64,000 nt of DNA from a virus. Both the position numbers and the translations under genes were made by a program. The stretch's first letter is position 1. Every line of letters starts with the position of its first letter. Location: the IMG/VR virus record IMGVR_UViG_3300005611_000012, positions 8,075 through 72,074 of that record. One strand, written 5' to 3'. This document shows, piece by piece, positions 3,015 through 55,112 of the stretch. The notes under the pieces were generated by a model, which was not told the origin of the DNA, ran no database searches, and saw only the letters and a program-made list of their open reading frames with translations.

Positions 3015-3239
3015 TCACACCCGTGGAGGCCAGAACCATCGCATACCATCAGTTGGTTCTTCTGAAAACAGCACATCGGCCAATCCCAGAGGAGTGTCTA
3101 GATTACGATAAATTAGGAGATCCACAGTGAAATCATCGATAACCCGAGTGATTATTGCAGGTACGGGATCTTGAGTGTGCCCACGCTGAGCTTGGTCGGG
3201 AGAATCAAAATGCACAATACGTCCGACAGAGGGTTTCAT
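3015..3239 (-). CDS. Small conserved phage protein (MKPSVGRIVHF...PAIIT type)
   Basis: 74 aa from ATG 3239 (ATGA overlap with upstream gene); the N-terminal KPSVGRIVH motif is common in phage small proteins. Confidence 0.7.
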   Translation of the reverse strand: MKPSVGRIVHFDSPDQAQRGHTQDPVPAIITRVIDDFTVDLLIYRNLDTPLGLADVLFSEEPTDGMRWFWPPRV

Positions 3240-3568
3240 GCTTCTTCTCCCTGGAACATCCGCTCTTTCAGGAGATAGCCTTCGAGCTCCCAGATTTTGC
3301 GGACGGCGTCTTGGACAGCAAACTTGCGCCCCAAGTAAACATTGAAGTTCTTTGGATCCGCGGCGCCAGATTTGCCGATGACGGAAAACCCATTGTCGAG
3401 AACCACGTTGGCAATGGTAACGCCCGGGCTCGAGGTTGGGTTCCAATATTCTACCGATCGAATCTTTTCATGGATCTCACCGAGGTCGACTCGATTATCG
3501 GTTTTAGCGACTGCCTTGGCTTCGGCATTTGAGGCTTCCAACGCCTCGCTCTTGAGGGGATCGTCCAT
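3236..3568 (-). CDS. N4 gp49 / Sf6 gp66 family protein
   Basis: 110 aa from ATG 3568 (AAGGA RBS); VLDNGFSVIGKSGAADPKNFNVYLGRKFA...KIWELEGYLLKE matches the family signature. Confidence 0.85.
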   Translation of the reverse strand: MDDPLKSEALEASNAEAKAVAKTDNRVDLGEIHEKIRSVEYWNPTSSPGVTIANVVLDNGFSVIGKSGAADPKNFNVYLGRKFAVQDAVRKIWELEGYLLKERMFQGEEA

Positions 3569-3695
3569 AATGGTTCCTTCTTGGGTTTTAGGAATTAACG
3601 GGCTTATAACCGGTAATCGAGAAATGCAAGTGCCTCGCGCGCGCATTTATATCTCCCCATAAGTAAACCCATATGGATATAGTGTATTATATTAG

Positions 3696-3755
3696 GGGAA
3701 GGGGGAGGGGGGTCCCCAGGCGCTACGCGCCGTGGGGACCCCCCTCCCCCTTCCC
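3696..3755. repeat. Perfect 23-bp G/C inverted repeat with inner 5-bp stem and 3-nt loop
   Basis: GGGAAGGGGGAGGGGGGTCCCCA (3696-3718) and TGGGGACCCCCCTCCCCCTTCCC (3733-3755) are exact reverse complements; GGCGC-TAC-GCGCC plus a 1-nt bulge lies between them. Confidence 0.95.
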
Positions 3756-3873
3756 TATAGTAGAAAAATAATTCTTGTAAACCTCTATTTAAACACGCGC
3801 GCGCGATAGGGCCTTTGCTTGCTTTATCGGCAATTTACGGATAATGGCTGGATTAACGATTAAGGAGTGAACA

Positions 3874-4125
3874 ATGTCAGGTCCTGGTTATTTTGCATCT
3901 GAGTATCTGACGGAGGGGTTCTCTGAGAACCATCTCTCACCTCCGACGTTGAACCCAAACAAAACAGGTCTCCCATATACGAATGCCTCAAATCATATTT
4001 TGAGACAAACGCTTGCTGCCCGCGATGTTGTGATTGTAATTAAAAACGATCTCGACCAAATCTTGGTGGATATTCAAGCCGGCATTGCAGGATCTGATAT
4101 CGCGGCTCTTCCAGCCCGACCTTAG
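3874..4125 (+). CDS. Hypothetical protein preceding the tail fibre
   Basis: 83 aa, AAGGAG RBS, first gene of the divergent plus-strand module. Confidence 0.65.
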   Translation: MSGPGYFASEYLTEGFSENHLSPPTLNPNKTGLPYTNASNHILRQTLAARDVVIVIKNDLDQILVDIQAGIAGSDIAALPARP

Positions 4126-4137
4126 TGGAGACTAATT

Positions 4138-39311: not shown

Positions 39312-39670
39312 GATCGGCAGTGAAGATGCTGATGCTTGGGAACCCTGACCAAAAGCACCACCTGAGAGAAATACGTTAGGGCTGTAGCTGTGCCACAAAG
39401 GGCAGCATAACGGCTGAATCTTCTCAAGAGGGTTTACTTCACAAGGGGCGAGGGAGAGATCCCCGAGTCGGTTAGACCCTGGCCGGCACTTAAGTTTCAA
39501 GAATCTCGCACGACGCGCTACCGGGCCAGAGATATTAACTGGGTATATGTAGTGAGGTGGGCATTACCATCCCCTCGAGGATTACGACTTCGGAAGGTTT
39601 TCTCAAAAAGTGGCTGGCTTTGGCAGCATTGAGCCTAGGGAGATCAACGCTGCATTCAAATTTCACCCGA
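39312..39670 (+). ncRNA. Candidate structured non-coding RNA (upstream tract)
   Basis: About 360 nt with no convincing ORF; helices TCGGCA/TGCTGA, CTGGCC/GGCCAG and GCAGCATTGA/TCAACGCTGC. Confidence 0.35.
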
Positions 39671-40255: not shown

Positions 40256-40627
40256 ATGGCTGATACCAAGCTCAAAATTGGGGAAACTGTCTGCTATAAG
40301 TGTGGCTCTCCAACTTTCGTCATCAAGAAAATCGTCAAAGACGGTGATCTCATTCTTTCTTGGTTCAATTCCAAGATTCATGCTCATCAGGATATTCGGG
40401 TACCCCCGCATCTGGTGGAGCTGGTTGAAGACTTCAACGAACGCAAATTGAAGATCGAGACCCAATTCGATAAACGCCTTTATCGCGTTCCAGAGGGTCT
40501 CCCGTTGGATCACATTCTGACGATCGGCTTTGATTCTGCTGAACTTAAACAAAGCTTTCTTGAGCGGATGTTTGATGAGCAGATGCAAGCTCGTATTCTC
40601 GGTGATGACGAACCACTGAAACACTAA
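40256..40627 (+). CDS. Protein with YodC/DUF2158-like N-terminal domain
   Basis: Start ATG 40256 (AAGGAG RBS); KIGETVCYKCGSPTFVI...ILSWF resembles GDxVxLKSGGPxMTV...WF. Confidence 0.55.
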   Translation: MADTKLKIGETVCYKCGSPTFVIKKIVKDGDLILSWFNSKIHAHQDIRVPPHLVELVEDFNERKLKIETQFDKRLYRVPEGLPLDHILTIGFDSAELKQSFLERMFDEQMQARILGDDEPLKH

Positions 40628-41217
40628 AACCCCGTGAGGGGCAGGATCCGTGAAGGCCGAGGGGGGTTTGTTCGCCCAGAGCCGTGTAAGGGATCCGCAG
40701 GACCAAGAGCTGCAGAGCACGGTTACCTGATTGGATATTGGTGTTCTGAAAGATGGTCGCCGGTAGTGACAGAGTTTTTGGTTCGGGCTTCATTTGTCGT
40801 AGTGCCATTCGATGAATGAAGCCCATTAATAGCTCCCGCAAGGGAGTAGGGCCTAGTGATCTACGAAACGCCTTCGGGCATAGAACACCCCTCACCCCGA
40901 ACCAGGGGCCGTGTTAGTAAGGGTTCAAATCCGTAAAGCACGGTTCCTGGTTCTTCATTAAGTTTTATGATGCGATGATCCCGAATGTACCAGGTAGGTG
41001 TATTTAGGCCTGGTTCTCCATACGGTCGACAAGGGCGGCTACGGAGGTAACTACTCTGAGTACAGAGGACAATCACGTCGCAACCGCTTAGCGAAAGCGA
41101 AAGCAGCCTGGAACGGGACAGGGTCCCATGACGTGCGTGGATGAAGAGACGGCGACCTGGGTAAGAGTTGTAATCAAAGGTGTCCCGGTTCGATCCCGAG
41201 ACAGAGATCATCGTATC
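40628..41217 (+). ncRNA. Candidate large ornate non-coding RNA (about 590 nt)
   Basis: No credible ORF; long-range helices GGTGTTCT/AGAACACC and GATGCGATGATC/GATCATCGTATC; GNRA and UUCG tetraloops; two T-loop hairpins; internal duplicated module. Confidence 0.6.
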
Positions 41218-41256
41218 TTAAAGCTTATTGCTTAGTGTCAACATAAGGAAATTTTT

Positions 41257-41604
41257 ATGCACTATCGAATCGTATCTTTTGCCGACATCGATGATCCATC
41301 TGACGTGGATCTGAATGATCTGCCTATAGCTCAATGCGGTTGGTTCGACGGTTATCCTGTCGGAGACCGGGCACTTGAGGGTGTGATGATTAAAGTCGTC
41401 ACCAACAAAGCCAGTGACGCTCTTGAGCTGGTATTCGACCAATGGCCCCCTTCTTTGGCCCAAGGGCATTTTGCCCCCAAGCTGTTAGAGTTTGCCTACC
41501 AGAATGATTTCTTCTCAAGCACTGAGGACGCTAATGATGATATGATTATGATCATCAAACGAGAAGACGATCAGAAGCCTTGGCGATATAATTACGAGGA
41601 TTAA
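41257..41604 (+). CDS. Acidic hypothetical protein
   Basis: 115 aa, AAGGA RBS. Confidence 0.65.
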   Translation: MHYRIVSFADIDDPSDVDLNDLPIAQCGWFDGYPVGDRALEGVMIKVVTNKASDALELVFDQWPPSLAQGHFAPKLLEFAYQNDFFSSTEDANDDMIMIIKREDDQKPWRYNYED

Positions 41605-42559: not shown

Positions 42560-42720
42560 GGGGCTCATCCGTGGTCGGTATTCTTTGGACATTTTGGTAT
42601 TGTTATGACGATTGGATTGCCAGCGTTAGCGGCATCCCTGAGCTAGGTACCGTCCCATTCTTTCTTTGGTTCGTTATTTGGCTCATCCTGAGTGCAGTGA
42701 CGGTCAGAATAGAAGTTTAA
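42556..42720 (+). CDS. Small two-TM membrane protein
   Basis: Start ATG 42556 (ATGA overlap); convergent with vRNAP. Confidence 0.55.
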   Translation: MRGSSVVGILWTFWYCYDDWIASVSGIPELGTVPFFLWFVIWLILSAVTVRIEV

Positions 42721-45700
42721 GATGTCAGATTCACCCAGGGATTAAGGTTCCAGCCAGCCTCGATCATTCCCGGCCCAATCGAATAACCCAAACGCCCGTC
42801 TCCAGCGACAGATGCCACATTATCTAGGACTGGTGATCCCGCATCCAGATTCAGCACGTTGGCTGTACTCAGAGCCAGGAGAGCAGAGGCTGGGTTGTTC
42901 CGGATGATGTCCAGAGCAATCTTGATCGAGCGCAGCTTGAAGTTCATGAACCAAGTCAGACCAATGCTCTCGAGGTACGAACGTGCCCGGGAGTCATTCA
43001 AATCGTAGTTAATAAATTCCTGATCGATTTTCAGCATCGCATCCTCAGGACTTACGCCTCGCTCTTCAGTGAGGAAGTCGTAGTAGATGGCTTTAGAGAT
43101 GAAGTCTCCATACTGTACGCCCTTGGCCAGACCCTGATAAAGCGCAGTGTCTTTCGCCACGATGCTATACCGAGCCACGGTAGCCAGACCACCGGGGAGC
43201 TCACCCGCTTTCTTTTCCACCCAATCCATAAACCGCCCGTCCATGAGTGCCCGGTCAGAGTCTGTCAGACCCTCGGAAATCGTGGTGAATTGGTTCGCTT
43301 CCAGGAGTGGCCAGATCGACATCTTACGGTTGGCTTCATCGATTGCCTCGATGCGTGCCTCAATGTTCTTCTTCTCTGTCTTGGATCTCGAGGCCAGAGC
43401 ATCAGCTCGGAGCTTCACTTTGAGATCTTCATTCTTGAGATAGGTCTCGATTTCAGCAAACTTAGACCGAGTCCGCTGGGTCATATATGAGAGAGGCACT
43501 TCCCGAGTTGCCAGCTGGATCACGTTCGCAATCGTGTTAGCAGCCAGGATTACGCCGCTCTTAACGACGATTACGTGTTTAACTTCAGAAACAACTTGCT
43601 GGAGAATCTCTTCGGCGCCCACCACATACTTGAATGCGTCTGCACCCAGGAATGGCGTAGCCATAAAGACGCCTTTGATGCCTTCACGGAGCTCTTCGTT
43701 AAGACGAGACTTACCGGTCCAGATGTCAGCTACTGAAGCCGATCGGAAACCAAACGTATTGTTGATTAAGTCACGACGTACTTTGATGGGTCCACCAAAG
43801 ACTTCCTCGGCGTATTCACGTGCCTCTTTCGGCATAAGGAAATAGGCTTCTCGCCAGACAGGATCACCCTGCAGATCACCAGTAAGATCCCAGGAGCCAT
43901 CGTCTTTCTGCTCACGACCAAAGTCAGCGTACTCATCACCGCGGCCGTTTGCATTGTCACGATCATAAATCGCTTTCATGGCGTCGATTAACTCTTTATT
44001 AAGACCTTGCGCAGCTTTCTCTTCCTGGATCCGGCCGGCCCAGCGTCCAAGGCTGTCAGCATAATCCTGTGTTGGCTCCAGCATTGGCAGCATGTCAGAT
44101 GCCACAGCCTGTTCGAAGCCTACAAGACTACCATCCATATTGAAGACCGGGATCAGACCATCTTTGTGATCAAGCCCTGTACGGGCTTTCATTCTCTTAT
44201 TCAGAAGAGAAGCTTCTTTGCCGGAGATCAACCCACCAGTGGTCTCAGGACCCACAGTCAAGCCAGTGACAGCGTCGACACCTGAATAGGTATTCTGGAC
44301 TGTCTGAACGACACCCTGGTTGTAAGTCGCCAGCTTATTGTGAGCGGAGAAATAATAGCTCTGACCTTTCCGAGTTGGGTCCAACTGCTGGACAGCTGAA
44401 TCATAATCCCGAATCCGCTTGTAACCCTGCTCACGAAGTTTCTGCTCATCCGAGTTATTAGCTAGGATTACTGAGTATTTACGTCTTCCCTGGGTCACAA
44501 AGTGTCCCTTGACCCCGTTCACCGCGGCAGAGCTATTGATATCCACCTTGGCTCTTTCAAGGCGGTGGAGCTCTCTCTGATAGTCTGCAGCATACCGCAG
44601 AGCATCTCGGTCTGTCTTAACGAGCTCAGCAATCTCAGAGTGTGTTTCATCACTAAGCTTGTTCAAAGCCTCCAGAGAAGCCAGCAGATCGATCTGATCA
44701 ATAAGGGCACGAGTCTCTGTGGAGATACGCCCCTGACCGGTACGGCGTTTCTTTAGAGCCTCCTGCAGGGCTTTGTACTCAGCTTGGCTAATTGAAAGAC
44801 CATCCTCATTATGAAGGTTCAGGATCCCGACAGCGGATGTAAGCAAGTTTACACCGGTGTTCTTGTTGACCATGTACTCAGCGAGCTGTTCAGCCTTACT
44901 GAAGTAAGCCCGGACAATCTTGTCTGAGACATCCATGCCGGCCATGCTGCGCTGGATCTGCTCTTTGACGTCTTTGATGGCACGATCTCTGCGCCCACGG
45001 GCATCCCGGTCGGAACCATAGAGCTCCAAGCCTGAGTTCACACCCATGACTTTAGCGATGATGCCGAAGTCAGTCTGTCCCATCCCCTGAAAGAGGGCCT
45101 TCATGGCTTTGCGCTGGCCTTTCTCGTCGAGGTTCTGGAACGCATCACCAAAACGAGACCGGATAATCTTCGGTACCTGTTCGATGTATTCCTGACGCAG
45201 ACGAGACACTGCGTTCTTCGCTTTCTTAACCAGCTGCAAGACCTGGGCGTTATCTGAGCCGATTGAACGCATTTCTGCGTAGAGAGCTCGAATAGCCTCA
45301 GGGATCTCGGGCTTATTCAAGAAGCTGATAAGACGTTCGTCCTGTGCTTGGGCGCGCTCTTCTACCAGGATATCTGCCAAGCCGGCAGCCACACCCTGTA
45401 CAGCCTTAGAAAGATCATTGCTGGATTTCTCAGCGCTTTCTCTGAAGCCGTCGCTGACCCGACGCGCAGCGTCGGAGACAGCGCCGCGGACAATGACATT
45501 AATACCCTTGAGGTTATCAGCCCGATCGTTCTCGAATTCAGTTGCAGCTTGAGCGTCATACTCGAGAAGCATCTCAGTAAGTGCATCCAATGCAGCATTA
45601 GACGGCAATGACTTGTCGCCGTTGCTTTCGATAATACGACCATTAAGTCGGTTAATAACTTTTTGAGTGGTAGAACCAAGAAGACCATCCAAGCCGGAGC

Positions 45701-48700
45701 CTGTGTCAAAGTCAGTGTTCAGACCCAGCTGACCGAGATCAATCTCAGAAAGAACCTCTCTCAGCTCTGGGGACGTCTGGGCCAGCGACAAGAACATGGC
45801 AAGCTTCTGACCACCTTTGTCTTCACCGACAGGGGTAAACTCAGTTGCGCCGGCAAGGTCATAGAAAGGAATACCGAGGAGGGCAGCAAACATACGCTGT
45901 CCCTGGAGTTCATTTGCTTGGCCACCGGGACCAAAGCGCTCAAACATCTCAGGCTTCAGCTGCTCCATGATCTTACCGTAGATCTGGTTCAGCTCTTGAA
46001 GGGCGACAGTGTCTAACTTGGTATCAACAGCTAATACCGCGTAAAGGGTCTGGAATAGCAGATTGTCTTGGGTCCCTTCGATGGTGAAACCAGCGGCCGC
46101 TGCGGTAGACAAAGCGTCCAGACCTTCAGTCTTGGCTTTGGTGTACTCAGCTGCAGCTTTAGTCTGCTTGGCCCGGGTAGCGACATTGTCATCTCCGCGG
46201 AGACGAGCCTTTAAGAATTGAGTAACCTGCTCGCCGACCTTGCGCTGAATGCCCAGCTTGCGCTGGGCTTCAGCACCGGTCGCTGTCGCTTCAGTAAACG
46301 CAGAGTGGGCCAACGGATGATGAGTAAACTCAGTCGTCTGAGGGATTTCCCGCATTACAGACTTAGTCCAGAACTTAACGGCATTATACTCTTTAGCAGG
46401 GATACCAATGAGTTTACGGATCGTGTTAAGCACAGACCGGAAAGCTTTTAAGACTTTACCACGAACACTTTGATCAAAACCAGAGAGGATATTATCCATC
46501 GTACTTTGATTGGTCGTGCCATAAGCGATGAACTCAGCAACAGCTGAAGCAATATCACCCTCGAGCTGGTAGCCTTTAATGACACTGGCAACTTTTGCCA
46601 GAATTGGATCCGAACTAAAGTTTTGATCCAGGAACGTATCCATATCCTGTTCGATCGATTCAAAGGCTCGGTCCAACTGAGGTGTCGTGTTCCCGCGGAC
46701 ATAGTAATCATAAATCTGATGCACAGTTGTGGCGTGAACCATCTCGTGGGCAGTCACTTCAGCATTGGCAATATTCAAATAGATCGTTTTCGTACGGCCG
46801 TCGTAAGTACCAGCAATTGCTGGGATGTCTCCGCCTTTATCGTTTAATACGACTTTAAAGCCTTCTTCAATCAATTGACCCAAGACAGGAGATTTAAACG
46901 CAGCTGTTACGATGTCCTGTAGATCAGGGTTTGCGTCGATTGCTTCACGAAGAATGTCACGGATCTGCTCACCAGTATATGTGCCCTCGGTTACACCGAG
47001 ATCACGACCAGCTTCAGTTACCAATGATTCGAGCCCTTCACGCTTCTGTTCTTCAAGCCGGCTAAGGCTCTCAATCCAGATCCGATTGGTCTCATAGTTG
47101 AGGTGATCAATAAGTTCCTTTTCGGATTTGAACCTTTGACCTTCTTGAACGAACGGGGCATCCGCACCAGGGACCCCTTGGAACGATGTGAACACGCTCT
47201 TTTCGGCTTCGATACGGGCGTCTCTCTTCAAGACATCAATCTCAAGAGCATCCCGAACAGCTTTGAGCTCAGCATAATCGTTGGTGTCTTCTTCCATGAA
47301 GGCAAGCGCACGATCATATGCTTCGAGCACAGGGCGCAGCGTATTGGTGTGCCAAGCTTTGGAGATGGCCTCATTCATAACCTGAGAGGCTTGAACCAGA
47401 TCAGTCGTAGCATGGTTATTACCATCGTGAACTGCCAACGCATTGGTTGGGTAGTTCGGATTAGTCCAGCTATCGACTTCCATTGCCACGTCGGCATTAG
47501 TTTGTGTGGTGAACGGTAGGATCCGAACACCTGGATCACCAAGGACGTCTCGACGAGAGTCGATTTGCTTACCTGAAAGCGTACGAGACCGCGGATTGAA
47601 TGGGTTCTCAACGACAGCGTCTTTGTCACTCTCAGCCTTTTTCTGCTGACCGTAACGTCGACGAGCCACATCAGTGGATGTCTCAGATTCGTTGGTCACC
47701 ACGTTGAATGAGGTTACGCCGTTGTCGATGATTGGAGCCAGATCACGATGAGCATCAATGATCTTACGCACCTCAGAACGAGGAAGCTCATGGCTCTCAA
47801 AGATCTCGCCGGCTTCTACCATCTCTTTACGACGAGCGTCTAAAGCAGCTTCTACTGTCTTCTTGTAAATACGTCCTTGGAGTTGGGCGCCTTCAATGAG
47901 AGACTTATTCAGCTGAGCAACCGACGGATCCACAGCTTGCTCAAGAGCGGCCGTAAAGCCAGAGATATAAAAAGCTTGCAGAGATCGAGCCAAACGTTGA
48001 GCCTGATCATTGTCGACAAGGAAATCTCTTAAAACCTCTTTAGACGGATTATTACTTTGTAATACCGAAGAGAGAGTACGACCCTTAGGGGCCGACCGGA
48101 CAACCTTATCGAGGTTCCCAAACTCATCAAAGACCACATCGTGGGTCACCAGATTATCAAAGATCTTCGCTTTCTCACGAAGAATAGGGAGGACAGACGC
48201 GTCTCCCTGTCCCAGTTTTGTGAGATCAGAATAGATGTCTGTAATGATATCTGCAGCAAGACCCAGTGAGATTGAGGGAGCTTTTGCACCGTAGAGGTTC
48301 TGGGTGATCGGTGACTTAGTTGCTCCCCGGGCAATCTTCATAACAGGACGTCCGTCCTCACCTACAGTGAGTTCGTATCCTTTCATGGTTCCCAGTAGCT
48401 GGAGTGTACGAGCAAATGCACGCTTGCCATCTTCTTTCCAGCGGAAAGCTTCGTCTGCGTCTTCGGCTCTGCCGCCGAAGATCGTGCCATCCAGAATACT
48501 CTCTTGAACACTCAAAAGGGTTGAGCCCATGAGCTCACCAACACGGCCGTAGAAGTCTGCAGCAGAACGTTCAGCTACCGGTGTGAGCGTATCGTCTGCA
48601 TTAACGCCGTTCTTCCATTGGTAATAAGAAATACCGTCATTGGGATTGAAAGCGTTCGACAAGAAGTATCCACCGCGGCGCCACGTGGCCAGGATTTCTG

Positions 48701-51700
48701 GAGAATACGCACCACCAAAATGCTGAATGGCAGCCGTGATAGGACCGTTCGTCTTACCATCGAGCTCCATGTACATATCAGTTTCGAGCTGGGTCTCGCC
48801 GGCAGCCTTTGCATCAGCAATCTTTTTGGCAGTCCAAAGGCCCTTCAGAGTAAACGCATCTTCTTCGAGACCAATCTGGTTCATCTTCTCTACGACAAAC
48901 TGTCTGATCTTTGGATCCGTCAGCTCACCATCAAAGGCTTCGAGCACATCTTTATACTCAGTAGCCAAGAGTTCACGGGCTTGCTTGGCAGCTTCTGCAA
49001 TCCCAAGGTTCTCAACCTTAAGACCCAGAGACTGGCCAATAGCCGCATAAAGAGTGTCTTCCTGGGTTGCATCTGACAAGTCGACTGTGTGTCGAGTTGG
49101 CGAGAACATCTCCCGAGCCAGCTTATTCTGCTGTGGGTTGAAGCCTTCAAAGTTAAAGCGCGTGTTTGTGCCGATCGAGATCCGATAGTAAATAGGTACC
49201 TCGTGAGGATTCAGATCATGTTTCTCAGCGTAGGCCATGACCTCATCGATTTGACGAAGAACGTTATTGATCCCGTAATCAACGCTGACGTTCTTGCCTT
49301 CGACAGACTTTTCATCAAATTTGTTATAGAACTGACCGTTTGCCAGAGGCTTAAAGCCAAGCATATAAGCAACAGCCTGGTTGCCCAGCTGCTGGTACAT
49401 TTCCCAGAAGTCTTTCGAGAAATAGAACGGAGTGTCTTGCTGAGCTTTGATAGCCGCTCGCTGTTTGTCAGAAATTCGGAGCGTACGATCTTTTTTCACA
49501 GTACGATCGACGTCTTCATCGGCCCATCGCTGACCAATAGAATACCGGTGCATGTCGCTGGACTTAGACGTCAGGACATCTCTCAACAGGTTCTTGCCGG
49601 CACCTTCTTGCCAGCCTTTTGGGTTACCAAAACTATACGCAGTCACGGTACGATCACCTGGCATCTGCACACTACGTGACTTGAACCAGAAATTCTTACC
49701 AACAGCGTTCGCACCATCTAATGACAGATATTCCAGGATTTCGTGGGACAGAGCTTCAAACACACCTTCGGTCTCTGTGGCAGAGACTTGATCATTTAGC
49801 TCAGCTCCAAGAAACTGACGAATATGAGAAGCCAGAGCCGGCTTAACGAATGCCCCAGGCCGACCAGAATTCACCATGTCGATCATCTCAGGTGTGATTT
49901 TTGTCACATCTGAAATACCGAGGATCTTGGCAATCTCAGAAAGCTTATATTGGCCTCCTGAGTTCTCATTGTTCATGACATAATCAGCAGCAGCCATCAC
50001 AGCCAACATCAGGATATGCTGATCGAACTTTGGTTCACCATCACGAATAGATTGGGCATCCATCCAAGCGAGGATCCGGAACTGTTCAGAACGAGCCGGG
50101 TTGAATTCAGTCTCGCCGTTCTGGAATTCCTGCATCGCCTGTAAGAGAGGCTTACCGTTCTTGGCTTTGAGCTTCTTGATCTGAGCAGTCACTCGCTGCT
50201 GCATTCCCTGAACAACGCGGAAAGCTTCAGCACGAACCTTTTCGTTAGCTGCTCGCATATCAGGAGTGACCCCATAAGAGAGGTCTTCTTCTGCTGCAGA
50301 GATCAGTCTTTCCAGGGTATCCCCGGGTTGCAGCTTTGGTTCCAACGCAGTGAGTATTCTCGACATAAACGAAGGTTGATCACCATTACTCAAAAGCGTT
50401 GTGCCCAGAATATACTCTGGGGTCCAACCTTCAGGGAGACCAACATCCTGGTCTACTACTCGAGTTGTTTCGATCGGTTCTAGCCCTTCAGGTGCCTGGA
50501 CCTGCTCAGCTGAAGAAGTCGCAGGAGTGTTCTCAACACCCGTCGTCTCGACGGCGTCAGCCGTCGCAGTTTCGGGTGTTGGGGTTGCTTCTGATACTTG
50601 TTCTGTCTGTGCGGGGGCAGGCACCGGTGATGGGAGACGCTCTTCAATTGCTTTACCTACTCCATCGGCAATAGCTGCTACAGCTGCTGCAATAGCACTT
50701 TCTGTCTCAGTAGCTTCTACCGCCGGGAGCGTCGCGTCGGAGCCAGTCTCCGCAGGAGACTGTTCCTCCGCCTGCGCCGGCTGGGAAGTCTGAACAAAGA
50801 AAGCGGAGCCATCAAATTCCCAACCATCTATTTTTGTATTTTCGGGTAGGGTGTTAATAATCGCTTGTCTGATAGTAGCATCAGTTAATTTCAAGAACTC
50901 ATCAAAAACTGCTTGATCACCTTGAGTGGTATCATCGTAAATTTTAGTCAACAATGAATTTTCAAACTCTAAGCGAAAATCACCTTCTGGGTATGTTGTT
51001 TCAATTTTAAGCTCAGGATTTTTGAAAGCCTCAGCAAGCTCAAAAGCTTTGTCCTGTGCAGCTGTAATTTTAGGAACAACATTAAAAATAAGCTGTTCTT
51101 GGAACCATTCAAATTCCAAAATCTCATTAGCATTGCCAATAAGTGGTTGAATATTTTTTTCGATCCAGGGATCTAATGTATCCCAAGTATCGCGTTTTAA
51201 CATGTCATTTAATCGAGCAATCCAAGAAGTTTTTTTAAATGTAACACGTAATTTAAGACGACCATCAGCCTGTTTATTAGCGATTAGTGTGTAATCTGCT
51301 TTTTCAATTGTCTTAGTTTCAACAGTCTCTACTGGGGACCGTGTTCGTTCAGGAGCTGGAGCGGGCTGTTCTTTAGCTTGCTTCTTTGTGTCCGGCGTTG
51401 GCGCCTCTTTTCGCGCTGGTGCCGTAGAAGTTGTTTCTGCTTCAGATCCTTGCGTGACATCTTCTGCCTGTCTTTGCTGAACTTCTCGAGCTTGCAAAGA
51501 TGTGGTTTGGCTGTCAAGCGCCAGCGTACGAGTGTTCAGATACAGTCTATCTAACGCTGTGAGCGCTTTTCGTGAGTTACGTTGTGGATTGCTTTCACCG
51601 ATGAAAGCACCGATCAGACCTTTCACAAAGCCAATAACCTGTTTGGCAAAACCAGGATCTTCATAAACGATAGCATCCAGATCAGGCTCAATCTCTTTTA

Positions 51701-54700
51701 CAGTGAGGCCGTACGCCATGTACTCAGAGATTGCCCGAGCCATATTGCGATCTTGTTGTGCGATCGGAAGCGCTGGATTGACTAGAGCTCGCATGATGTC
51801 TTGAACTCGCTGACTCTCAGGAGAGACATCTGTTCGCTCCATAAACGCTAAAGCAGCATCATTAAGCTCTAATGCAGCTTTTTCCGTAGCAGTAAGGGGT
51901 TGCTCGGTACCACGCTTCAAAGATGCACTGGCCAGGTTTTGGAACAATGCTTCCAGAGTGGTCGCATGAATCATCTCATGCAAAAGAGCCTCAGCGTTCT
52001 GATTGAAAATAACAATCTCGTTCTTCTGAGGATCCCACCAACCATGAGTGGTCTTTGAAGCTTTGCGCTCTTCAGCAGTGGCTTGTCGTACAATCGTACG
52101 AGGGTTCGCTCTCGCGAAAGAGGAACCAGCAATCATAGACAAAATCGTTTGCTGATTTGGATTTAGGGCGCTGGATCCCAGTAGATATCGGATAGCGCCT
52201 GAGAGGTTGGTTTCGTTACTTCCTTGGAATAACTCTTTAAAGCTGATCCGGCCGTCAGGCTGCAGACCGTCACCAGGGCTCCGAGGAGTATTATCCACAC
52301 CGGTATCTTGTACCACTTCCGTGGGTTGGGCTTGTTCAGTTTGATCTTGCTCAGATCTCTGTGGTGTCGGGGCATCTTGGGTCGCCTCACTCTGTTCAGG
52401 GACTGCCGGCACTTCCACTTCTTGGAGGCGCTCACCCTGATAGGTTTCTGGAAACTGCTCGAGCAACGCATTATAAGCGCGGATCCCGGTATTAAGATCT
52501 TCGGCAATGGCAGCATATGTTTGAAGGGAGTTGTTGCTTTTTGCGTTAACGAAAATTTTACCCTTTCCAGGACGGAACTCACCAGTCTTCTGACTGAGAG
52601 AGTCAAAGGGTCTGGTGGTATCTCGGGCATCGGGGTTTGCAACAGAGAAATCGTGGCTCTCTTGAGCCGCAGCATACTTGTTTTGTTGGTGCTGGATAAG
52701 CTTCTGGAGATCCGCCAAGACGTCTTTAGCGTCGACTTGAGCCCCTGTCGTATCGCGTACAACTGTGGATCCTTCGCGGCCGTTGCGAATGGCGCCGCGG
52801 ATGAGTTGAGAAACCATATCATTGAATGATGCGATCTCACCAAACTTGGCTGTCTTACTTTGGAAGAGTGTCTCACGACGTGCGCCGGCACGATCGTTTT
52901 TACGATTGCCTTGTACGGGACCCAAACGATCAGAATGCTCAGGTGCCTGAATAGCTTCAACGACGGCCACCGCTTTCAGAGAATCCTCTGACATGCCGGC
53001 TTTGGCCTCTTCAGTGATACGAGCAGGATCTACGCCCACTGGGTTCATCACAACTTCTTTGATGGAACCAATAGGACGAACCTCTCCGCCGGCGGCTACT
53101 GATTTAACAGATGCAGCATTGAGAATTTCAGACGTCTTCCGAATTGTCTCAGCGAGAACTGGTTGCTCATCCATATGGGATGTAAACTCATCAGCCCGGG
53201 CTTTGGCACGTGCTTCAACCGCTGCGTCTTCTTCGGGGGTACGTTGAGTAGAAGGCGTGTCTTCTTCAGTTTGTTGCTGGGCATCCAGACCCAGAAACTC
53301 AAAAGCTCCATGGTACCCAGACAAGAGATCTGCTTGTTCCTGATAATACTCAGCCAGGGCAATGCCTGCTTCGCTCTCAGGATCATAAGCATTCCGAGAG
53401 ATAGCTTCTTGAAGGTTCTGAAGCGTCTTCACCCGATCGCCGTCGACGATCTCTTTCTTGAATGGTTTGGTCTTTTGCTTCTCTTCTGGGGTCAGCCCTT
53501 CCAGGAACTGGATCTCATCACCCAGAATGTCCCGTACCCGTTCGATCTGGGCTCGGGCCTCAGGAGCAATTTCTGCTTTAGGGTCGTCTAATGCTTTAAT
53601 AAGGTCTGCAACCTGCTTACCTTCTTCAACCATTGGACCATAGGTCTCTTCCAATGTGACACGCTCTTTGGCAATGAGACGATTACGTTTCAGCTCATTT
53701 AGATTTTTACCAATGGTAACGCCCGTTTTAAGAGAAACATCCGCTACAACCTCAGCCCAAGCCTTCGGGAAAGAAGGTGCGCTAATGACGGCCGTAGCAC
53801 CCAGACCACCGATGGCGCCTTCAGTGGCTGCCTGACCGACGTCGTCTGAAAGCCGTACACTTGAGTCTGCATTGTCTCGAAGAGCGATGTTCTGGAAAGC
53901 CTGCGCTGTGGCGTTCTGTGCTGCTTCTTCAACAGTTTGACCGGCTACATCTTCGCCTAAGGATTTGAGGCTTCGGATCCCTCGAGTGAATGCACCACCT
54001 TCAAAGCCAGCAAATGGTGTTGAAATACCAGCTGCCACAAGCGTGGTGTTAAGCTGAGCTTCCATCGCAGCAATGCGAGATACTTCTTCCCGGGCTTTTT
54101 CGTGAGACACGCCGCCTTCACGAAGAGCTCGATAGTCATCTGAATCCTTGAGAAGAGTTTCTTCATCCAACTCCAGGACAGCACGGCGTGTCTCACCGTA
54201 GGCACCTGAACCTTCAAGAGCACCAACAGTTGCCGCAGTGACAGCGGTTTCAATGACTTCTTTACCGACGCCTTTAATACCCACTCTTTCAAGGAGAGCT
54301 GTAGCCAGACCACGTGCGCCACCAGCCGCTGCAAGCGACGGGATCATGGAACCAAGACCCTCAGCTGCTACGTCTGCCGCGGCAGATGGGTTATCCTTAT
54401 AGGAGTCGGCTGAAATAATTGCGTCTCGGCCGATGCGACGGAACTGCTCACGCAGCGACTTGTCTGAATTCTCAAACGCAAGGGCACTATCTTTAAGACG
54501 GGCTTCTGCTGTTTGGGCTTGGCCGGCACGAAGTTCATTGATGCGTTCGCCTTTACCCTTTGCAATGAAATCAGCAACAGCAGCACCACCATCAGAGATT
54601 GTATCGTCAAGACGCGCTGGATCTACATCTAAACCTGCAGCATCTCCAAGCGCCCGCGCTCCTTCTCGGGTGGCTTCGCCACCCGGAAGGGCGCGAGCAC

Positions 54701-55112
54701 CAAAGGCCAAAGTATCAGCTGAAATACGAACAGCAGCGGAACCAGCTCCCGCCAGGGAGTCAGTAGCTTTTTCTCTTAATATACGAGTATCTTGGCGATT
54801 AACTGCTCGCTGAGATTCATTGGTTGTTTGGTCAGGGGATTCAAAGAAACGAGCTCGCTCGGCTTCAAGACCATACTTAAGAGCGAACTGCCCAGGTGGC
54901 AGTGTTTGCTTATCAATCTCCAATTGCTCATTGGGTCCTACTTCGGGACCCCCGGGACGGAGTCGATCAAAAAGACCCTCGCCAATTCCAACGAGACCCT
55001 GTCCAACATCCACAGCTGCAGCAGTTACAGGATCTCGATCACGGATAGTTTTAGGCTCTTCCGTAATAGTAGATCGACCGATATCGGCTAGTTGCTCTGT
55101 GAATTGTGACAT
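42717..55112 (-). CDS. Virion-encapsidated RNA polymerase (N4 gp50-like), 4131 aa
   Basis: Motif A MELDGKTNGP, motif B RGATKSPITQNLYG, motif C AVHDG; conserved C-terminal VKHVIVVKS...IQYGDF-like...EFINYD...GLTWFMNFKLRS; no Cys noticed on reading, as reported for N4 vRNAP. Confidence 0.95.
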   Translation of the reverse strand: MSQFTEQLADIGRSTITEEPKTIRDRDPVTAAAVDVGQGLVGIGEGLFDRLRPGGPEVGPNEQLEIDKQTLPPGQFALKYGLEAERARFFESPDQTTNESQRAVNRQDTRILREKATDSLAGAGSAAVRISADTLAFGARALPGGEATREGARALGDAAGLDVDPARLDDTISDGGAAVADFIAKGKGERINELRAGQAQTAEARLKDSALAFENSDKSLREQFRRIGRDAIISADSYKDNPSAAADVAAEGLGSMIPSLAAAGGARGLATALLERVGIKGVGKEVIETAVTAATVGALEGSGAYGETRRAVLELDEETLLKDSDDYRALREGGVSHEKAREEVSRIAAMEAQLNTTLVAAGISTPFAGFEGGAFTRGIRSLKSLGEDVAGQTVEEAAQNATAQAFQNIALRDNADSSVRLSDDVGQAATEGAIGGLGATAVISAPSFPKAWAEVVADVSLKTGVTIGKNLNELKRNRLIAKERVTLEETYGPMVEEGKQVADLIKALDDPKAEIAPEARAQIERVRDILGDEIQFLEGLTPEEKQKTKPFKKEIVDGDRVKTLQNLQEAISRNAYDPESEAGIALAEYYQEQADLLSGYHGAFEFLGLDAQQQTEEDTPSTQRTPEEDAAVEARAKARADEFTSHMDEQPVLAETIRKTSEILNAASVKSVAAGGEVRPIGSIKEVVMNPVGVDPARITEEAKAGMSEDSLKAVAVVEAIQAPEHSDRLGPVQGNRKNDRAGARRETLFQSKTAKFGEIASFNDMVSQLIRGAIRNGREGSTVVRDTTGAQVDAKDVLADLQKLIQHQQNKYAAAQESHDFSVANPDARDTTRPFDSLSQKTGEFRPGKGKIFVNAKSNNSLQTYAAIAEDLNTGIRAYNALLEQFPETYQGERLQEVEVPAVPEQSEATQDAPTPQRSEQDQTEQAQPTEVVQDTGVDNTPRSPGDGLQPDGRISFKELFQGSNETNLSGAIRYLLGSSALNPNQQTILSMIAGSSFARANPRTIVRQATAEERKASKTTHGWWDPQKNEIVIFNQNAEALLHEMIHATTLEALFQNLASASLKRGTEQPLTATEKAALELNDAALAFMERTDVSPESQRVQDIMRALVNPALPIAQQDRNMARAISEYMAYGLTVKEIEPDLDAIVYEDPGFAKQVIGFVKGLIGAFIGESNPQRNSRKALTALDRLYLNTRTLALDSQTTSLQAREVQQRQAEDVTQGSEAETTSTAPARKEAPTPDTKKQAKEQPAPAPERTRSPVETVETKTIEKADYTLIANKQADGRLKLRVTFKKTSWIARLNDMLKRDTWDTLDPWIEKNIQPLIGNANEILEFEWFQEQLIFNVVPKITAAQDKAFELAEAFKNPELKIETTYPEGDFRLEFENSLLTKIYDDTTQGDQAVFDEFLKLTDATIRQAIINTLPENTKIDGWEFDGSAFFVQTSQPAQAEEQSPAETGSDATLPAVEATETESAIAAAVAAIADGVGKAIEERLPSPVPAPAQTEQVSEATPTPETATADAVETTGVENTPATSSAEQVQAPEGLEPIETTRVVDQDVGLPEGWTPEYILGTTLLSNGDQPSFMSRILTALEPKLQPGDTLERLISAAEEDLSYGVTPDMRAANEKVRAEAFRVVQGMQQRVTAQIKKLKAKNGKPLLQAMQEFQNGETEFNPARSEQFRILAWMDAQSIRDGEPKFDQHILMLAVMAAADYVMNNENSGGQYKLSEIAKILGISDVTKITPEMIDMVNSGRPGAFVKPALASHIRQFLGAELNDQVSATETEGVFEALSHEILEYLSLDGANAVGKNFWFKSRSVQMPGDRTVTAYSFGNPKGWQEGAGKNLLRDVLTSKSSDMHRYSIGQRWADEDVDRTVKKDRTLRISDKQRAAIKAQQDTPFYFSKDFWEMYQQLGNQAVAYMLGFKPLANGQFYNKFDEKSVEGKNVSVDYGINNVLRQIDEVMAYAEKHDLNPHEVPIYYRISIGTNTRFNFEGFNPQQNKLAREMFSPTRHTVDLSDATQEDTLYAAIGQSLGLKVENLGIAEAAKQARELLATEYKDVLEAFDGELTDPKIRQFVVEKMNQIGLEEDAFTLKGLWTAKKIADAKAAGETQLETDMYMELDGKTNGPITAAIQHFGGAYSPEILATWRRGGYFLSNAFNPNDGISYYQWKNGVNADDTLTPVAERSAADFYGRVGELMGSTLLSVQESILDGTIFGGRAEDADEAFRWKEDGKRAFARTLQLLGTMKGYELTVGEDGRPVMKIARGATKSPITQNLYGAKAPSISLGLAADIITDIYSDLTKLGQGDASVLPILREKAKIFDNLVTHDVVFDEFGNLDKVVRSAPKGRTLSSVLQSNNPSKEVLRDFLVDNDQAQRLARSLQAFYISGFTAALEQAVDPSVAQLNKSLIEGAQLQGRIYKKTVEAALDARRKEMVEAGEIFESHELPRSEVRKIIDAHRDLAPIIDNGVTSFNVVTNESETSTDVARRRYGQQKKAESDKDAVVENPFNPRSRTLSGKQIDSRRDVLGDPGVRILPFTTQTNADVAMEVDSWTNPNYPTNALAVHDGNNHATTDLVQASQVMNEAISKAWHTNTLRPVLEAYDRALAFMEEDTNDYAELKAVRDALEIDVLKRDARIEAEKSVFTSFQGVPGADAPFVQEGQRFKSEKELIDHLNYETNRIWIESLSRLEEQKREGLESLVTEAGRDLGVTEGTYTGEQIRDILREAIDANPDLQDIVTAAFKSPVLGQLIEEGFKVVLNDKGGDIPAIAGTYDGRTKTIYLNIANAEVTAHEMVHATTVHQIYDYYVRGNTTPQLDRAFESIEQDMDTFLDQNFSSDPILAKVASVIKGYQLEGDIASAVAEFIAYGTTNQSTMDNILSGFDQSVRGKVLKAFRSVLNTIRKLIGIPAKEYNAVKFWTKSVMREIPQTTEFTHHPLAHSAFTEATATGAEAQRKLGIQRKVGEQVTQFLKARLRGDDNVATRAKQTKAAAEYTKAKTEGLDALSTAAAAGFTIEGTQDNLLFQTLYAVLAVDTKLDTVALQELNQIYGKIMEQLKPEMFERFGPGGQANELQGQRMFAALLGIPFYDLAGATEFTPVGEDKGGQKLAMFLSLAQTSPELREVLSEIDLGQLGLNTDFDTGSGLDGLLGSTTQKVINRLNGRIIESNGDKSLPSNAALDALTEMLLEYDAQAATEFENDRADNLKGINVIVRGAVSDAARRVSDGFRESAEKSSNDLSKAVQGVAAGLADILVEERAQAQDERLISFLNKPEIPEAIRALYAEMRSIGSDNAQVLQLVKKAKNAVSRLRQEYIEQVPKIIRSRFGDAFQNLDEKGQRKAMKALFQGMGQTDFGIIAKVMGVNSGLELYGSDRDARGRRDRAIKDVKEQIQRSMAGMDVSDKIVRAYFSKAEQLAEYMVNKNTGVNLLTSAVGILNLHNEDGLSISQAEYKALQEALKKRRTGQGRISTETRALIDQIDLLASLEALNKLSDETHSEIAELVKTDRDALRYAADYQRELHRLERAKVDINSSAAVNGVKGHFVTQGRRKYSVILANNSDEQKLREQGYKRIRDYDSAVQQLDPTRKGQSYYFSAHNKLATYNQGVVQTVQNTYSGVDAVTGLTVGPETTGGLISGKEASLLNKRMKARTGLDHKDGLIPVFNMDGSLVGFEQAVASDMLPMLEPTQDYADSLGRWAGRIQEEKAAQGLNKELIDAMKAIYDRDNANGRGDEYADFGREQKDDGSWDLTGDLQGDPVWREAYFLMPKEAREYAEEVFGGPIKVRRDLINNTFGFRSASVADIWTGKSRLNEELREGIKGVFMATPFLGADAFKYVVGAEEILQQVVSEVKHVIVVKSGVILAANTIANVIQLATREVPLSYMTQRTRSKFAEIETYLKNEDLKVKLRADALASRSKTEKKNIEARIEAIDEANRKMSIWPLLEANQFTTISEGLTDSDRALMDGRFMDWVEKKAGELPGGLATVARYSIVAKDTALYQGLAKGVQYGDFISKAIYYDFLTEERGVSPEDAMLKIDQEFINYDLNDSRARSYLESIGLTWFMNFKLRSIKIALDIIRNNPASALLALSTANVLNLDAGSPVLDNVASVAGDGRLGYSIGPGMIEAGWNLNPWVNLTS

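What the first reader, a model, noticed from the sequence alone, without database searches (positions are those of the whole stretch)
40628..41217. Candidate large two-domain ornate ncRNA with T-loops and an internally duplicated module
Seen: about 590 nt with no credible ORF. Domain 1 has GGTGTTCT (40740-40747) pairing with AGAACACC (40882-40889) around GGGCTTCATT/AATGAAGCCC, CTCCC-GCAA-GGGAG and GCC-TTCG-GGC; CCCC-GTGA-GGGG lies at its 5' end. A long hairpin GAACCAGG..GCCGTGTT/AGCACGGT..CCTGGTTC (about 40900-40953) caps a GG-GTTCAAAT-CC T-loop. Domain 2 is closed by a 12-bp helix (40969-40980 with 41206-41217) and contains CTCTG-AGTA-CAGAG, GC-GAAA-GC, GGGAC-AGG-GTCCC, CACGTC/GACGTG and a TGTC.CGG-TTCGATC-CCG.GACA T-loop hairpin. 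The module GCCGTGT..TAAGGG..ATCCG..AGCACGGTT.CCTG occurs twice (about 40681-40729 and 40908-40949). Known: phage tRNA regions host large ncRNAs such as GOLLD and ROOL. I found no core motifs of tmRNA, RNase P, SRP or group I introns. Inference: a new or divergent large phage RNA.
Basis: partly seen in the sequence, partly recalled or inferred. Interest (0 to 1): 0.8.

Follow-up and report, generated by a model that had tools for sequence, protein, structure and literature searches.

The report
Two phage RNAs, one tRNA-mimic
The gene-free 600 bases of this N4-like phage hold two adjacent folded RNAs, and the second is an enlarged member of a widespread phage RNA family, absent from Rfam, that copies the "elbow" of a tRNA; what it does is unknown.

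Summary
Every motif is at the stated coordinates, no ORF is conserved, the + strand folds far better than shuffles (z -5.0), and relatives keep the helices through compensatory changes.

The reading "one large two-domain RNA" is only partly right. Relatives show two separable modules.

**Module A (40628-40958):** about 330 nt built of GNRA- and UUCG-capped hairpins. It occurs only in five related marine N4-like phages, always just after a small YodC-like gene.

**Module B (40959-41227):** the long form of a family I found in 14 other IMG/VR phage contigs, further metagenome contigs of N4-like phages and 2 bacterial MAGs. Shared parts:
- a 10-23 bp terminal helix whose sequence differs in every copy;
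- a 4-bp covarying hairpin with the loop ACAAGGG;
- a canonical T arm stacked on the terminal helix.

Rfam 15 and ARAGORN recognise neither module.

The architecture resembles Y RNAs. In both carrier phages that encode Ro60, the element lies within about 1 kb of that gene and of a YrlA-like RNA. However, this phage has no Ro60, and only 1 of 80 phage Ro60 loci carries the element.

No transcript data were available.

The parts
40628..40958 (+).
   Evidence: It is present directly after the YodC-like gene in the window, L004/L005, L012/L013, L007-L010 and L006. Fold z-score is -6.9. No Rfam hit.
40630..40641 (+). H1: CCCC-GUGA-GGGG, a GNRA-capped hairpin right after the stop codon
   Evidence: It covaries: CUCC/GGAG in L006 and CUCC/GGGG in L012, with internal copies UCCC/GGGA and CUCCC/GGGAG. 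An alternative pairing of GUGAGGGG with CCCCUCAC (40888-40895), used by the MFE fold, cannot be excluded.
40644..40696 (+). H2: 6-bp helix (40644-40649 with 40691-40696) around the conserved strands GUGAAGG and GUGUAAGG and a small hairpin with loop UUUGUUC
   Evidence: RNAalifold on 4 sequences shows AUCC/GGAU becoming ACUC/GAGU and GCUU/AAGU. In all, 12 of 35 predicted pairs in this 5' part carry compensatory changes. The same module follows the YodC-like gene in the more distant L028 at 3490-3570.
40700..40784 (+). H4: 12-bp helix (40700-40711 with 40773-40784) enclosing a variable interior
   Evidence: All 12 pairs are kept in 4 sequences, with changes on one or both sides.
40785..40824 (+). 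Hairpin whose 10-nt loop UAGUGCCAUU (40800-40809) is conserved
   Evidence: The same loop sits on different stems in L012, L006 and L007. A UCGUGCCAUU variant sits at another position in L004.
40832..40847 (+). GNRA hairpin GCUCCC-GCAA-GGGAGU, preceded by the conserved AUUAAUAGC
   Evidence: The loop is GCAA or GUAA. The stem covaries: GCCCCC/GGGGGU in L007 and GCUUCC/GGAGGU in L012.
40870..40879 (+). GCC-UUCG-GGC hairpin
   Evidence: Kept in 4 of 5 sequences, including CUCG and G.U variants.
40889..40953 (+). Near-invariant CCCUCACCYC followed by the long hairpin, which has a conserved base (GAACCAGG/CCUGGUUC) and a variable tip
   Evidence: The 18-mer CCCTCACCYCGAACCAGG is shared by all five relatives. 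Upper-stem pairs covary: G-C to A-U in L004. The tip's T-loop is not conserved. Collection scans with this motif found only chance coding matches elsewhere.
40959..41227 (+).
   Evidence: It is 95-96% identical in L004 and L012, while flanking genes are 64-74% identical. Long forms also occur in L043 and L028-L030. Short forms occur in L026 and its near-identical partner contig L027, L031-L042, L044, L069 and L078.
40959..40980 (+). P1, 5' strand of the terminal helix. It pairs with 41206-41227 (about 21 bp with one mismatch).
   Evidence: Between the two groups of long forms, 10 of 12 pairs change on both sides. In 14 short forms, 9 of 10 pairs show double changes and 95% of cells are paired.
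40981..41014 (+). CCGAAUGU linker and hairpin ACCAGG...CCUGGU with the conserved loop AGGUGUNUUUAG
   Evidence: G-C becomes A-U in L004 and A-U becomes C-G in L043 and L028. CCGAAUGU (GUCCGAAUGU in L043) resembles the Ro60-contact motif quoted in PMC4201824, but the match is inexact.
41025..41039 (+). D-like hairpin GUCG-ACAAGGG-CGGC
   Evidence: The stem covaries in all four pairs across 14 short forms (CCCA/UGGG, CCAG/CUGG, CUCG/CGAG, CCGG/CCGG and others). The 7-nt loop is almost invariant, RYAAGGG.
41054..41135 (+). Insertion specific to the long form: CUCUG-AGUA-CAGAG, the helix CACGUC/GACGUG, GC-GAAA-GC and GGGAC-AGG-GUCCC
   Evidence: GGGAC/GUCCC becomes GGGUC/GGCCC (A-U to U.G) in L012 and in Logan contigs. 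CACGUC/GACGUG becomes UCACAU/AUGUGA in L043. Only two independent lineages are available, so the detailed fold is provisional.
41179..41203 (+). T arm: canonical loop UUCGAUC closed by G-C, a 5-bp stem with one C.A mismatch, extended by UGU/ACA and stacked on P1
   Evidence: This 22-mer was the search pattern, so its identity among hits comes from how they were found. The extension is kept differently in short forms (GUG/CGC with a bulged U), as read. ARAGORN and the Rfam tRNA model do not call it.

Best explanation
The ORF-free stretch holds two adjacent structured RNA modules that are inherited independently. Both are read from the + strand, probably as part of the same polycistronic transcript as the flanking genes.

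**Module B (40959-41227)** is a long-form member of a phage RNA family that Rfam does not list. Its parts:
- The 5' and 3' ends form a long helix.
- A canonical T arm stacks directly on that helix.
- A small hairpin with the invariant loop ACAAGGG supplies the GG that, in tRNA, docks on the T-loop.

Together these would copy the acceptor/T-arm stack and the elbow of a tRNA without an anticodon arm or a CCA end (inferred from sequence, not shown). The long form carries an extra insertion of about 130 nt at the place of the anticodon and variable region.

The most likely working is as follows; all steps are inferred. The RNA is cut out of the transcript at its long terminal helix and persists as a stable small RNA. 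It then acts by mimicry, occupying a host or phage protein that recognises the tRNA elbow. That partner could be a Ro60/Rsr-type protein or another tRNA-binding enzyme or nuclease.

**Module A (40628-40958)** is a separate, lineage-restricted ornate RNA. It is built of repeated units, each a GNRA-capped hairpin followed by a purine-rich junction and a helix. It always follows the YodC-like gene. Its function is unknown; a protein-binding or self-assembling scaffold is the best guess.
For: **Shown: real structured RNA.**
- Fold z-scores are -5.0, -6.9 and -2.7.
- No ORF is conserved.
- Module A: 12 of 35 pairs in its 5' part and 4 of 25 in its core carry compensatory changes.
- Short-form family: 97.3% of cells paired against 75.6% in shuffles, 13 pairs with changes on both sides, 0 of 500 shuffles as high, and slid controls at 31-58%.
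- The long-form terminal helix covaries in 10 of 12 pairs.

**Shown: the modules are separable.**
- L007 and L006 have module A without module B.
- L043, L028, L026 and 14 IMG/VR contigs have module-B-type elements without module A.

**Shown: long and short forms share a plan.** They have the same order of parts, the 12-nt box CGACAAGGGCGG and a 25-nt identical T-arm segment.

**Shown: strand and context.**
- In the 11 carriers with clear flanking ORFs, the element points the same way as the upstream gene.
- G.U pairs far outnumber A.C mismatches in the terminal helix.

**Shown: strong constraint or recent exchange.** Module B is 95-96% identical between phages whose neighbouring genes are 64-74% identical.

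**Link to tRNA-mimic systems.**
- Only 2 carrier phage records encode Ro60 on the same record. In both, the element is within about 1.1 kb of that gene and near a YrlA-like hit.
- YrlA-like RNAs also lie in the same island in L004 and L028.
Against: - No transcript, end-mapping or binding data exist. No RNA run holding the sequence was listed.
- The elbow contact between the ACAAGGG loop and the T-loop rests on analogy with tRNA, not on covariation. The T arm could not be tested for covariation because hits were collected with its sequence.
- A model built from short forms aligns only the T arm of the window (21.6 bits, E 0.011), not the whole long form. Long/short homology therefore rests on shared boxes and architecture.
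- No promoter or terminator was found, so independent expression is unproven.
- No CCA end or 7-bp acceptor stem is present, so several tRNA enzymes would not accept it.
Confidence: 0.55

Rival explanations
1. Module B is a true Y RNA. Its terminal helix and the CCGAAUGU segment would bind a Ro60/Rsr ring protein, here the host's. Its tRNA-like part would tether a second factor, as Yrn1 and YrlA do with PNPase.
For: - It has Y-RNA architecture: a long stem made of both ends, with an internal T arm.
- The D-then-T order matches what PMC4201824 describes for D. radiodurans Yrn1.
- In L032 the order is YrlA-like, Ro60 gene, element. In L039 it is YrlA-like, element, one ORF, Ro60 gene.
- L043 carries GGUCCGAA, the vertebrate Ro60-contact motif, at the end of the terminal helix.
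Against: - The window's 98%-complete genome has no TROVE protein, and 12 of the 14 other carrier records or genomes searched have none either; a third, the L078 MAG, has TROVE only on other contigs.
- Only 1 of 80 phage Ro60 loci carries the element.
- The window has no hit to Rfam YrlA even at E 10.
- The bacterial motif GNCGAAN0-1G is not met exactly: the window has CCCGAAUG.
Confidence: 0.2
2. The whole 590-600 nt is one large ornate RNA of the GOLLD/ROOL kind that works as a single unit.
For: - Modules A and B are adjacent in the same order in three phages: the window, L004 and L012.
- The region has many tetraloops and a variable 5' part with a conserved 3' part, as I recall for GOLLD. 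That recollection was not checked here.
- It lies in a region where relatives carry tRNA genes.
Against: - The modules occur separately in five other lineages.
- Each module is closed by helices of its own.
- Neither the GOLLD nor the ROOL model matches at E 10.
- The two modules have very different conservation levels: 76-81% against 95-96%.
Confidence: 0.12
3. The helices are cis-acting processing and stability signals of the polycistronic mRNA, such as RNase III sites or tRNA-like punctuation. They would not be trans-acting RNAs.
For: - The elements are always co-directional with their flanking genes.
- No promoter or terminator of their own was found.
- The terminal helices of 19-23 bp and the 17-bp hairpin are of a length typical for RNase III substrates (general knowledge, not tested).
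Against: A processing site does not need the invariant ACAAGGG loop, a canonical T-loop, or conserved junction sequences kept among phages whose flanking genes are unrelated.
Confidence: 0.1
4. The region holds decayed tRNA genes, an attP remnant of a tRNA or tmRNA gene, a MITE, or a DNA-level element such as an origin.
For: - It has T-arm sequence, and relatives have tRNA genes nearby.
- The element is bounded by inverted repeats.
- It lies in replication modules in several phages.
Against: - Stems covary while loops stay fixed, which is selection on an RNA fold, not decay.
- The inverted repeats differ in every copy while the interior is conserved. This is the opposite of a MITE.
- Carriers include lytic N4-like phages.
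- G.U pairs and the tetraloops fit one strand only.
Confidence: 0.03

Closest known systems
Bacterial and phage Y RNAs (YrlA, Rfam RF02553; Yrn1 and YrlB; Chen et al. 2014, PMC4201824)
   Same: - A long stem is formed by the 5' and 3' ends.
- The internal domain has a canonical T arm and a D-like element that mimic tRNA.
- They are encoded in phages.
- In the two carriers that encode Ro60, the element lies beside that gene and a YrlA-like RNA.
   Different: - The arms are in tRNA order (D then T), not permuted as in YrlA.
- There is no acceptor-like stem-loop.
- RF02553 does not match.
- This phage and most carriers lack Ro60, and 79 of 80 phage Ro60 loci lack the element.
- The long form is more than twice the size of known Y RNAs.
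tRNA, and the tRNA-like domain of tmRNA
   Same: - The T-loop sequence GUUCGAUCC is canonical.
- The T arm stacks on a terminal helix made of both ends.
- One copy (L031) lies 8 nt upstream of a permuted alpha-type tmRNA and among tRNA genes.
   Different: - There is no anticodon arm, no 7-bp acceptor stem, no CCA and no tag reading frame.
- ARAGORN and the Rfam tRNA and tmRNA models do not call it.
GOLLD and ROOL large ornate RNAs
   Same: - Phage-borne and rich in tetraloops.
- Near tRNA genes.
- Modular, with hairpins gained and lost. This applies above all to module A.
   Different: - No covariance-model match.
- Module A is about 330 nt and is known from only five related phages.
- No evidence of multimeric assembly.
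Permuted tRNA-like RNAs next to DUF7873 genes
   Same: They lie in the same accessory island. In L004, L025 and L028 a DUF7873 gene is followed by a YrlA-like hit and a tRNA, a few hundred bases from the elements studied here.
   Different: It is a different RNA: permuted, and matching the tRNA-like core of RF02553 at 33-41 bits. The window has neither DUF7873 nor that RNA.

Membership tests
YrlA (RF02553) | Scores at or above the Rfam gathering threshold (69 bits) | tested here: not met
   No YrlA hit in window 40400-41500 even at E 10. None at any short-form element either.
YrlA (RF02553) | Permuted order T arm, acceptor-like stem-loop, D arm inside the terminal stem | tested here: not met
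   The order here is D-like hairpin, then insertion, then T arm. There is no acceptor-like stem-loop.
Y RNA (general) | Encoded beside a Ro60/TROVE gene | tested here: not met
   The window's genome (98% complete) has no TROVE match at E 1. The feature is met in 2 of 14 other carrier records or genomes searched. Only 1 of 80 phage TROVE loci has the element.
Y RNA (general) | Ro60-contact motif near the 5' end (GNCGAAN0-1G in bacteria, GGUCCGA in vertebrates; PMC4201824) | tested here: inconclusive
   The window has AUCCCGAAUGU at the end of the terminal helix. L043 has GGUCCGAAUGU. Short forms lack the motif at that place.
Y RNA (general) | Binds Ro60 | not testable with these tools
   Needs a binding assay.
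tRNA | Cloverleaf with an anticodon arm, as called by ARAGORN or Rfam RF00005 | tested here: not met
   ARAGORN finds 0 genes in the window. No RF00005 hit at E 10.
tmRNA | tRNA-like domain plus a tag reading frame, as called by ARAGORN or the Rfam tmRNA models | tested here: not met
GOLLD / ROOL | Match to the Rfam covariance models | tested here: not met
   No hit at gathering threshold over the 64-kb window, nor at E 10 over 40400-41500.
New family defined here (terminal helix, ACAAGGG hairpin, T arm) | Terminal helix of both ends; 4-bp hairpin with loop RYAAGGG; T arm GGUGUCCCGGUUCGAUCCCGAG stacked on the helix, in that order | tested here: met
   The window has all three: 40959-40980 with 41206-41227, 41025-41039, and 41179-41203. 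However, the short-form model R1 aligns only the T arm.

The most novel reading that the evidence does not exclude
The terminal-helix/ACAAGGG/T-arm RNAs would be a new, Ro60-independent class of phage tRNA-elbow mimics. They would disarm or hijack a host factor that reads tRNA shape, for example a tRNA-directed defence nuclease or a processing enzyme. The N4-like long form would add a second functional domain. Module A would be a further, self-contained ornate RNA, perhaps one that assembles with itself or with the YodC-like protein encoded just upstream.
Probability: 0.2. Interest if true: 0.8.

Novelty: new variant of a known kind. Interest (0 to 1): 0.6.

Why it matters
Phages are known to carry tRNAs and a few tRNA-like or ornate RNAs whose roles are mostly unknown. 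This work defines a family, apparently not listed in Rfam, with very strong covariation support. It is spread over unrelated phage types, including N4-like podoviruses, a 165-kb phage carrying a tmRNA, phages with PolA-type replication modules, and prophage-like regions of two MAGs.

The family sometimes sits beside Ro60 and YrlA-like RNAs but mostly occurs without them. That makes it a testable case for whether tRNA-elbow mimicry in phages works through Ro60 or through other partners. The family is small enough for direct biochemistry.

Module B is near-identical between phages whose proteins differ by about 30%. This points to strong constraint or to recent lateral exchange of an RNA gene.

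Tried and rejected
**Searches that found nothing or only chance matches.**
- Rfam at gathering and at permissive E-values on the window and 20 or more related loci gave nothing for either module.
- ARAGORN found no tRNA or tmRNA.
- blastn and tblastn against GenBank phages gave no DNA match. The nearest isolates are only 38% identical in the vRNAP.
- Protein-anchored scans of IMG/VR with three neighbouring proteins found nothing.
- The first T-arm pattern, ending GAGA, found nothing.
- Scans with the module A 18-mer in IMG/VR and JGI metagenomes gave only chance hits in GC-rich genes, apart from one contig that is simply the reverse complement of L005.
- In the genome-contig scan, 34 of 36 hits were chance coding matches.
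- A scan for more long forms found only L043.
- Model R1 searched over the 52-genome bacterial family of one carrier found only the carrier itself.
- No RNA sequencing runs were listed.

**Ro60 partnership as a general rule: rejected** by the reverse test, 1 of 80 loci.

**Other readings rejected.**
- Coding: no conserved frame.
- MITE: the terminal repeats differ in every copy.
- attP remnant: carriers include lytic N4-like phages.
- Cis-regulator of the downstream gene: that gene differs among relatives (the 115-aa gene, DUF7873, a 77-aa ORF, a lipoprotein-like ORF).

**Neighbouring proteins.** Pfam and PHROG scans gave no recurrent partner apart from two Rv2179c-like exoribonucleases and the two Ro60 genes.

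Full report
**Setting**

The window is most of a 73.5-kb virus record from IMG/VR, estimated 98% complete. It carries a 4131-aa virion RNA polymerase on the minus strand at 42717-55112. That protein is 36-38% identical to those of cultured N4-like phages.

The finding lies at the end of the + strand gene block. The local gene order is:
- a Tad2-like gene;
- a 123-aa gene with a YodC-like N-terminus (40256-40627);
- the ORF-free stretch 40628-41256;
- a 115-aa gene;
- a DUF7178 gene.

**Observation**

The stretch folds much better than dinucleotide shuffles:
- whole region z -5.0;
- 40628-40958 z -6.9;
- 40959-41227 z -2.7.

The complementary strand is about 22 kcal/mol less stable. The GNRA and UUCG tetraloops and the T-loop read correctly only on the + strand. 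Stop-to-stop frames are short and fall at different places in the relatives. ARAGORN finds no tRNA or tmRNA. Rfam 15 finds nothing at gathering threshold in the 64-kb window and only noise at E up to 10 in the region.

**Finding relatives**

DNA and protein searches of GenBank phages and IMG/VR with the immediate neighbours failed. The large protein collection gave the relatives instead. Contigs were fetched through homologs of the 115-aa and DUF7178 proteins. Laid Logan contigs from aquatic and marine viromes confirmed further variants.

Module A plus B or parts of them were found in these lineages:

| Lineage | What it holds |
|---|---|
| L004/L005 | 93-95% identical, except that 40654-40825 is replaced |
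| L012/L013 | both modules |
| L007-L010 | module A only |
| L006 | core of module A only |

**Module A (40628-40958)**

RNAalifold on four sequences of the 5' part gives these helices:
- a GNRA hairpin;
- a 6-bp helix around the conserved strands GUGAAGG and GUGUAAGG;
- a small inner hairpin;
- a 12-bp helix.

Of 35 predicted pairs, 12 carry compensatory changes.

The core (40822-40958) keeps several features:
- AUUAAUAGC;
- a GYAA-capped hairpin whose stem covaries;
- a UUCG hairpin;
- the near-invariant CCCUCACCYCGAACCAGG;
- a long hairpin with a conserved base and a variable tip.

A hairpin with the invariant 10-nt loop UAGUGCCAUU sits on different stems in four lineages and at another position in L004. 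L007 and L012 hold extra internal copies of the unit "GNRA hairpin, purine-rich junction, helix". The RNA is therefore modular.

Scans of IMG/VR and JGI metagenomes with the invariant 18-mer found no further member. An HMM of the core found none in more distant N4-like relatives.

All five carriers have the YodC-like gene directly upstream. The first two helices also follow that gene in the more distant L028.

**What did not survive in module A**

- The pairing GGTGTTCT/AGAACACC has no compensatory support.
- The T-loop at the tip of the long hairpin is absent in L007 and non-canonical in L012 and L006.
- The "duplicated module" is significant in the window (0 of 2000 shuffles) but at chance level in L012 and L004.
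- It stays open whether CCCC-GUGA-GGGG is a local hairpin, as L006's CUCC/GGAG suggests, or whether GUGAGGGG closes the module by pairing with CCCCUCAC, as in the MFE fold.

**Module B (40959-41227)**

Module B is 95-96% identical in L004 and L012. The neighbouring protein genes are only 64-74% identical and module A 76-81%.

The short contig L026 contained a 130-nt miniature with the same T-arm segment and the same box CGACAAGGGCGG. This led to the key search.

**Collection scans for module B**
- Scanning IMG/VR with the 22-mer GGTGTCCCGGTTCGATCCCGAG gave 14 contigs.
- The 19-mer in 185,579 species genomes gave 36 hits. Only two (L069, L078) are real; the rest are chance matches in GC-rich genes.

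**Shared plan.** Every real hit shows the same order of parts:
- a terminal helix of 10-23 bp whose sequence differs in every copy;
- CCACUAG, in most short forms;
- a variable hairpin;
- a 4-bp hairpin with loop RYAAGGG;
- a variable segment ending CAACAGCARAGG;
- the T arm;
- three bases;
- the 3' strand of the terminal helix.

**Covariation.** On 14 short forms cut at fixed distances from the conserved boxes:
- 97.3% of cells pair, against 75.6% in shuffles;
- 13 pairs have changes on both sides;
- none of 500 shuffles reaches the observed values;
- slid controls give 31-58%.

The T arm itself cannot be judged this way, because it was the search pattern.

**Long forms.** These occur in the window, L004, L012, L043 and L028-L030, all N4-like. 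They replace CCACUAG by CCGAAUGU and carry an insertion of about 130 nt before the T arm. Between the two long-form lineages, 10 of 12 terminal-helix pairs and several inner pairs change on both sides. A scan for more long forms found only L043.

The short-form covariance model R1 recovers L034 and L036 at full length (26 bits), although they were not in its alignment. In the window it aligns only the T arm (21.6 bits). Placing the window's module B in this family therefore rests on three things: the shared order of parts, the two identical boxes, and the terminal helix.

**What module B works like**

The T-loop is canonical (G-UUCGAUC-C). Its arm continues without a break into the terminal helix, like the acceptor/T stack of tRNA. 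The ACAAGGG loop offers the GG that contacts the T-loop in tRNA. This is inference.

A long stem made of both ends with an internal tRNA-like domain is the architecture of bacterial Y RNAs. The D-then-T order is what PMC4201824 describes for Yrn1.

I tested the Ro60 link in both directions.
- **Forward:** of 15 carrier records or genomes searched, only two phage records encode a TROVE protein on the same record. In both the element is next to it, and a YrlA-like hit is there too.
  - L032: YrlA-like 504-570, Ro60 gene 734-2179, element 2225-2375.
  - L039: YrlA-like 1793-1910, element 2095-2215, Ro60 gene 3238-4611.

- **Reverse:** of 80 phage Ro60 loci with 3-kb flanks, only the L032 record has an R1 hit.

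The family is thus not a general Ro60 partner, though it keeps company with tRNA-mimic systems. YrlA-like RNAs also lie in the same island in L004 and L028, there next to DUF7873 genes.

Other context:
- Neighbours elsewhere are replication-module genes, plus an Rv2179c-like exoribonuclease in two cases.
- In the 11 carriers with clear flanking ORFs, the element points the same way as the upstream gene.
- The window has no promoter or terminator of its own. Release by processing is therefore likely but unproven.
- No RNA runs were available.

**Verdict**

The region is genuinely structured, conserved RNA that Rfam does not list. It is two modules rather than one two-domain molecule.

Module B is a new, enlarged variant within a widespread family of phage tRNA-elbow mimics that Rfam 15 does not list, and its architecture resembles Y RNAs. 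Module A is a narrow-range ornate RNA of unknown role.

**Confidence**
- High that both are real RNA structures and that they are separable.
- Moderate that module B acts by tRNA mimicry.
- Low for any specific partner.

Noticed in passing
L004:2566-2692, L025:1616-1685, L028:4753-4825: In three relatives a DUF7873 gene is followed by a permuted tRNA-like RNA. It matches Rfam YrlA at 33-41 bits, below the 69-bit threshold. A tRNA follows (Ile-TAT in L004). This fits the earlier scan note on DUF7873-associated tRNA mimics. The window lacks this cassette.
   Followed up: partly
window 39312-39670: The non-coding tract upstream of the Tad2-like gene is 82% identical in L007/L009. That is higher than the neighbouring protein genes, so it is probably another conserved RNA. 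In L043 and L028-L030 the equivalent position holds 200-840 nt of non-coding sequence that includes the long-form element. In L043 and L030 it also holds T-arm-like hairpins that neither ARAGORN nor Rfam calls in L043.
   Followed up: partly
L026:3195-3350, L028:3640-3790, L011:4490-4590: A further recurrent structured element ends in a terminator-like hairpin. Its shared boxes include UAUACCCGUGCAAGCAGGGUG in L026 and L028 and GGGGCAACC in all three. It has no Rfam match.
   Followed up: no
L006:5640-5830, L007:4795-5000: Another conserved GC-rich structured segment lies just upstream of the DUF7178 gene. It starts with a UUCGGAG...CUCCGA hairpin. The same start follows module B in the Logan contigs of runs X8 and X9.
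   Followed up: no
L031:1787-1913 (minus strand): In a 165-kb phage contig a short-form element lies 8 nt upstream of a complete permuted alpha-type tmRNA (Rfam 104-108 bits) and among seven tRNA genes.
   Followed up: partly
window 40654-40825 versus L004:1114-1247: Between two phages that are 93-95% identical on both sides, about 170 nt of module A are replaced by a different 135 nt. The replacement moves the GUGCCAUU-loop hairpin to another position. Directly after module B, L004 has a 1.15-kb insertion holding DUF7873, a YrlA-like RNA and a tRNA. The island is a recombination hot spot.
   Followed up: partly
ARAGORN and model R1 do not call it.
   Followed up: no
L042:50-772, L069:2851-3564: In two unrelated carriers the gene directly downstream of the short-form element encodes an Rv2179c-like 3'-5' exoribonuclease (Pfam E 1e-39 to 1e-43).
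   Followed up: no
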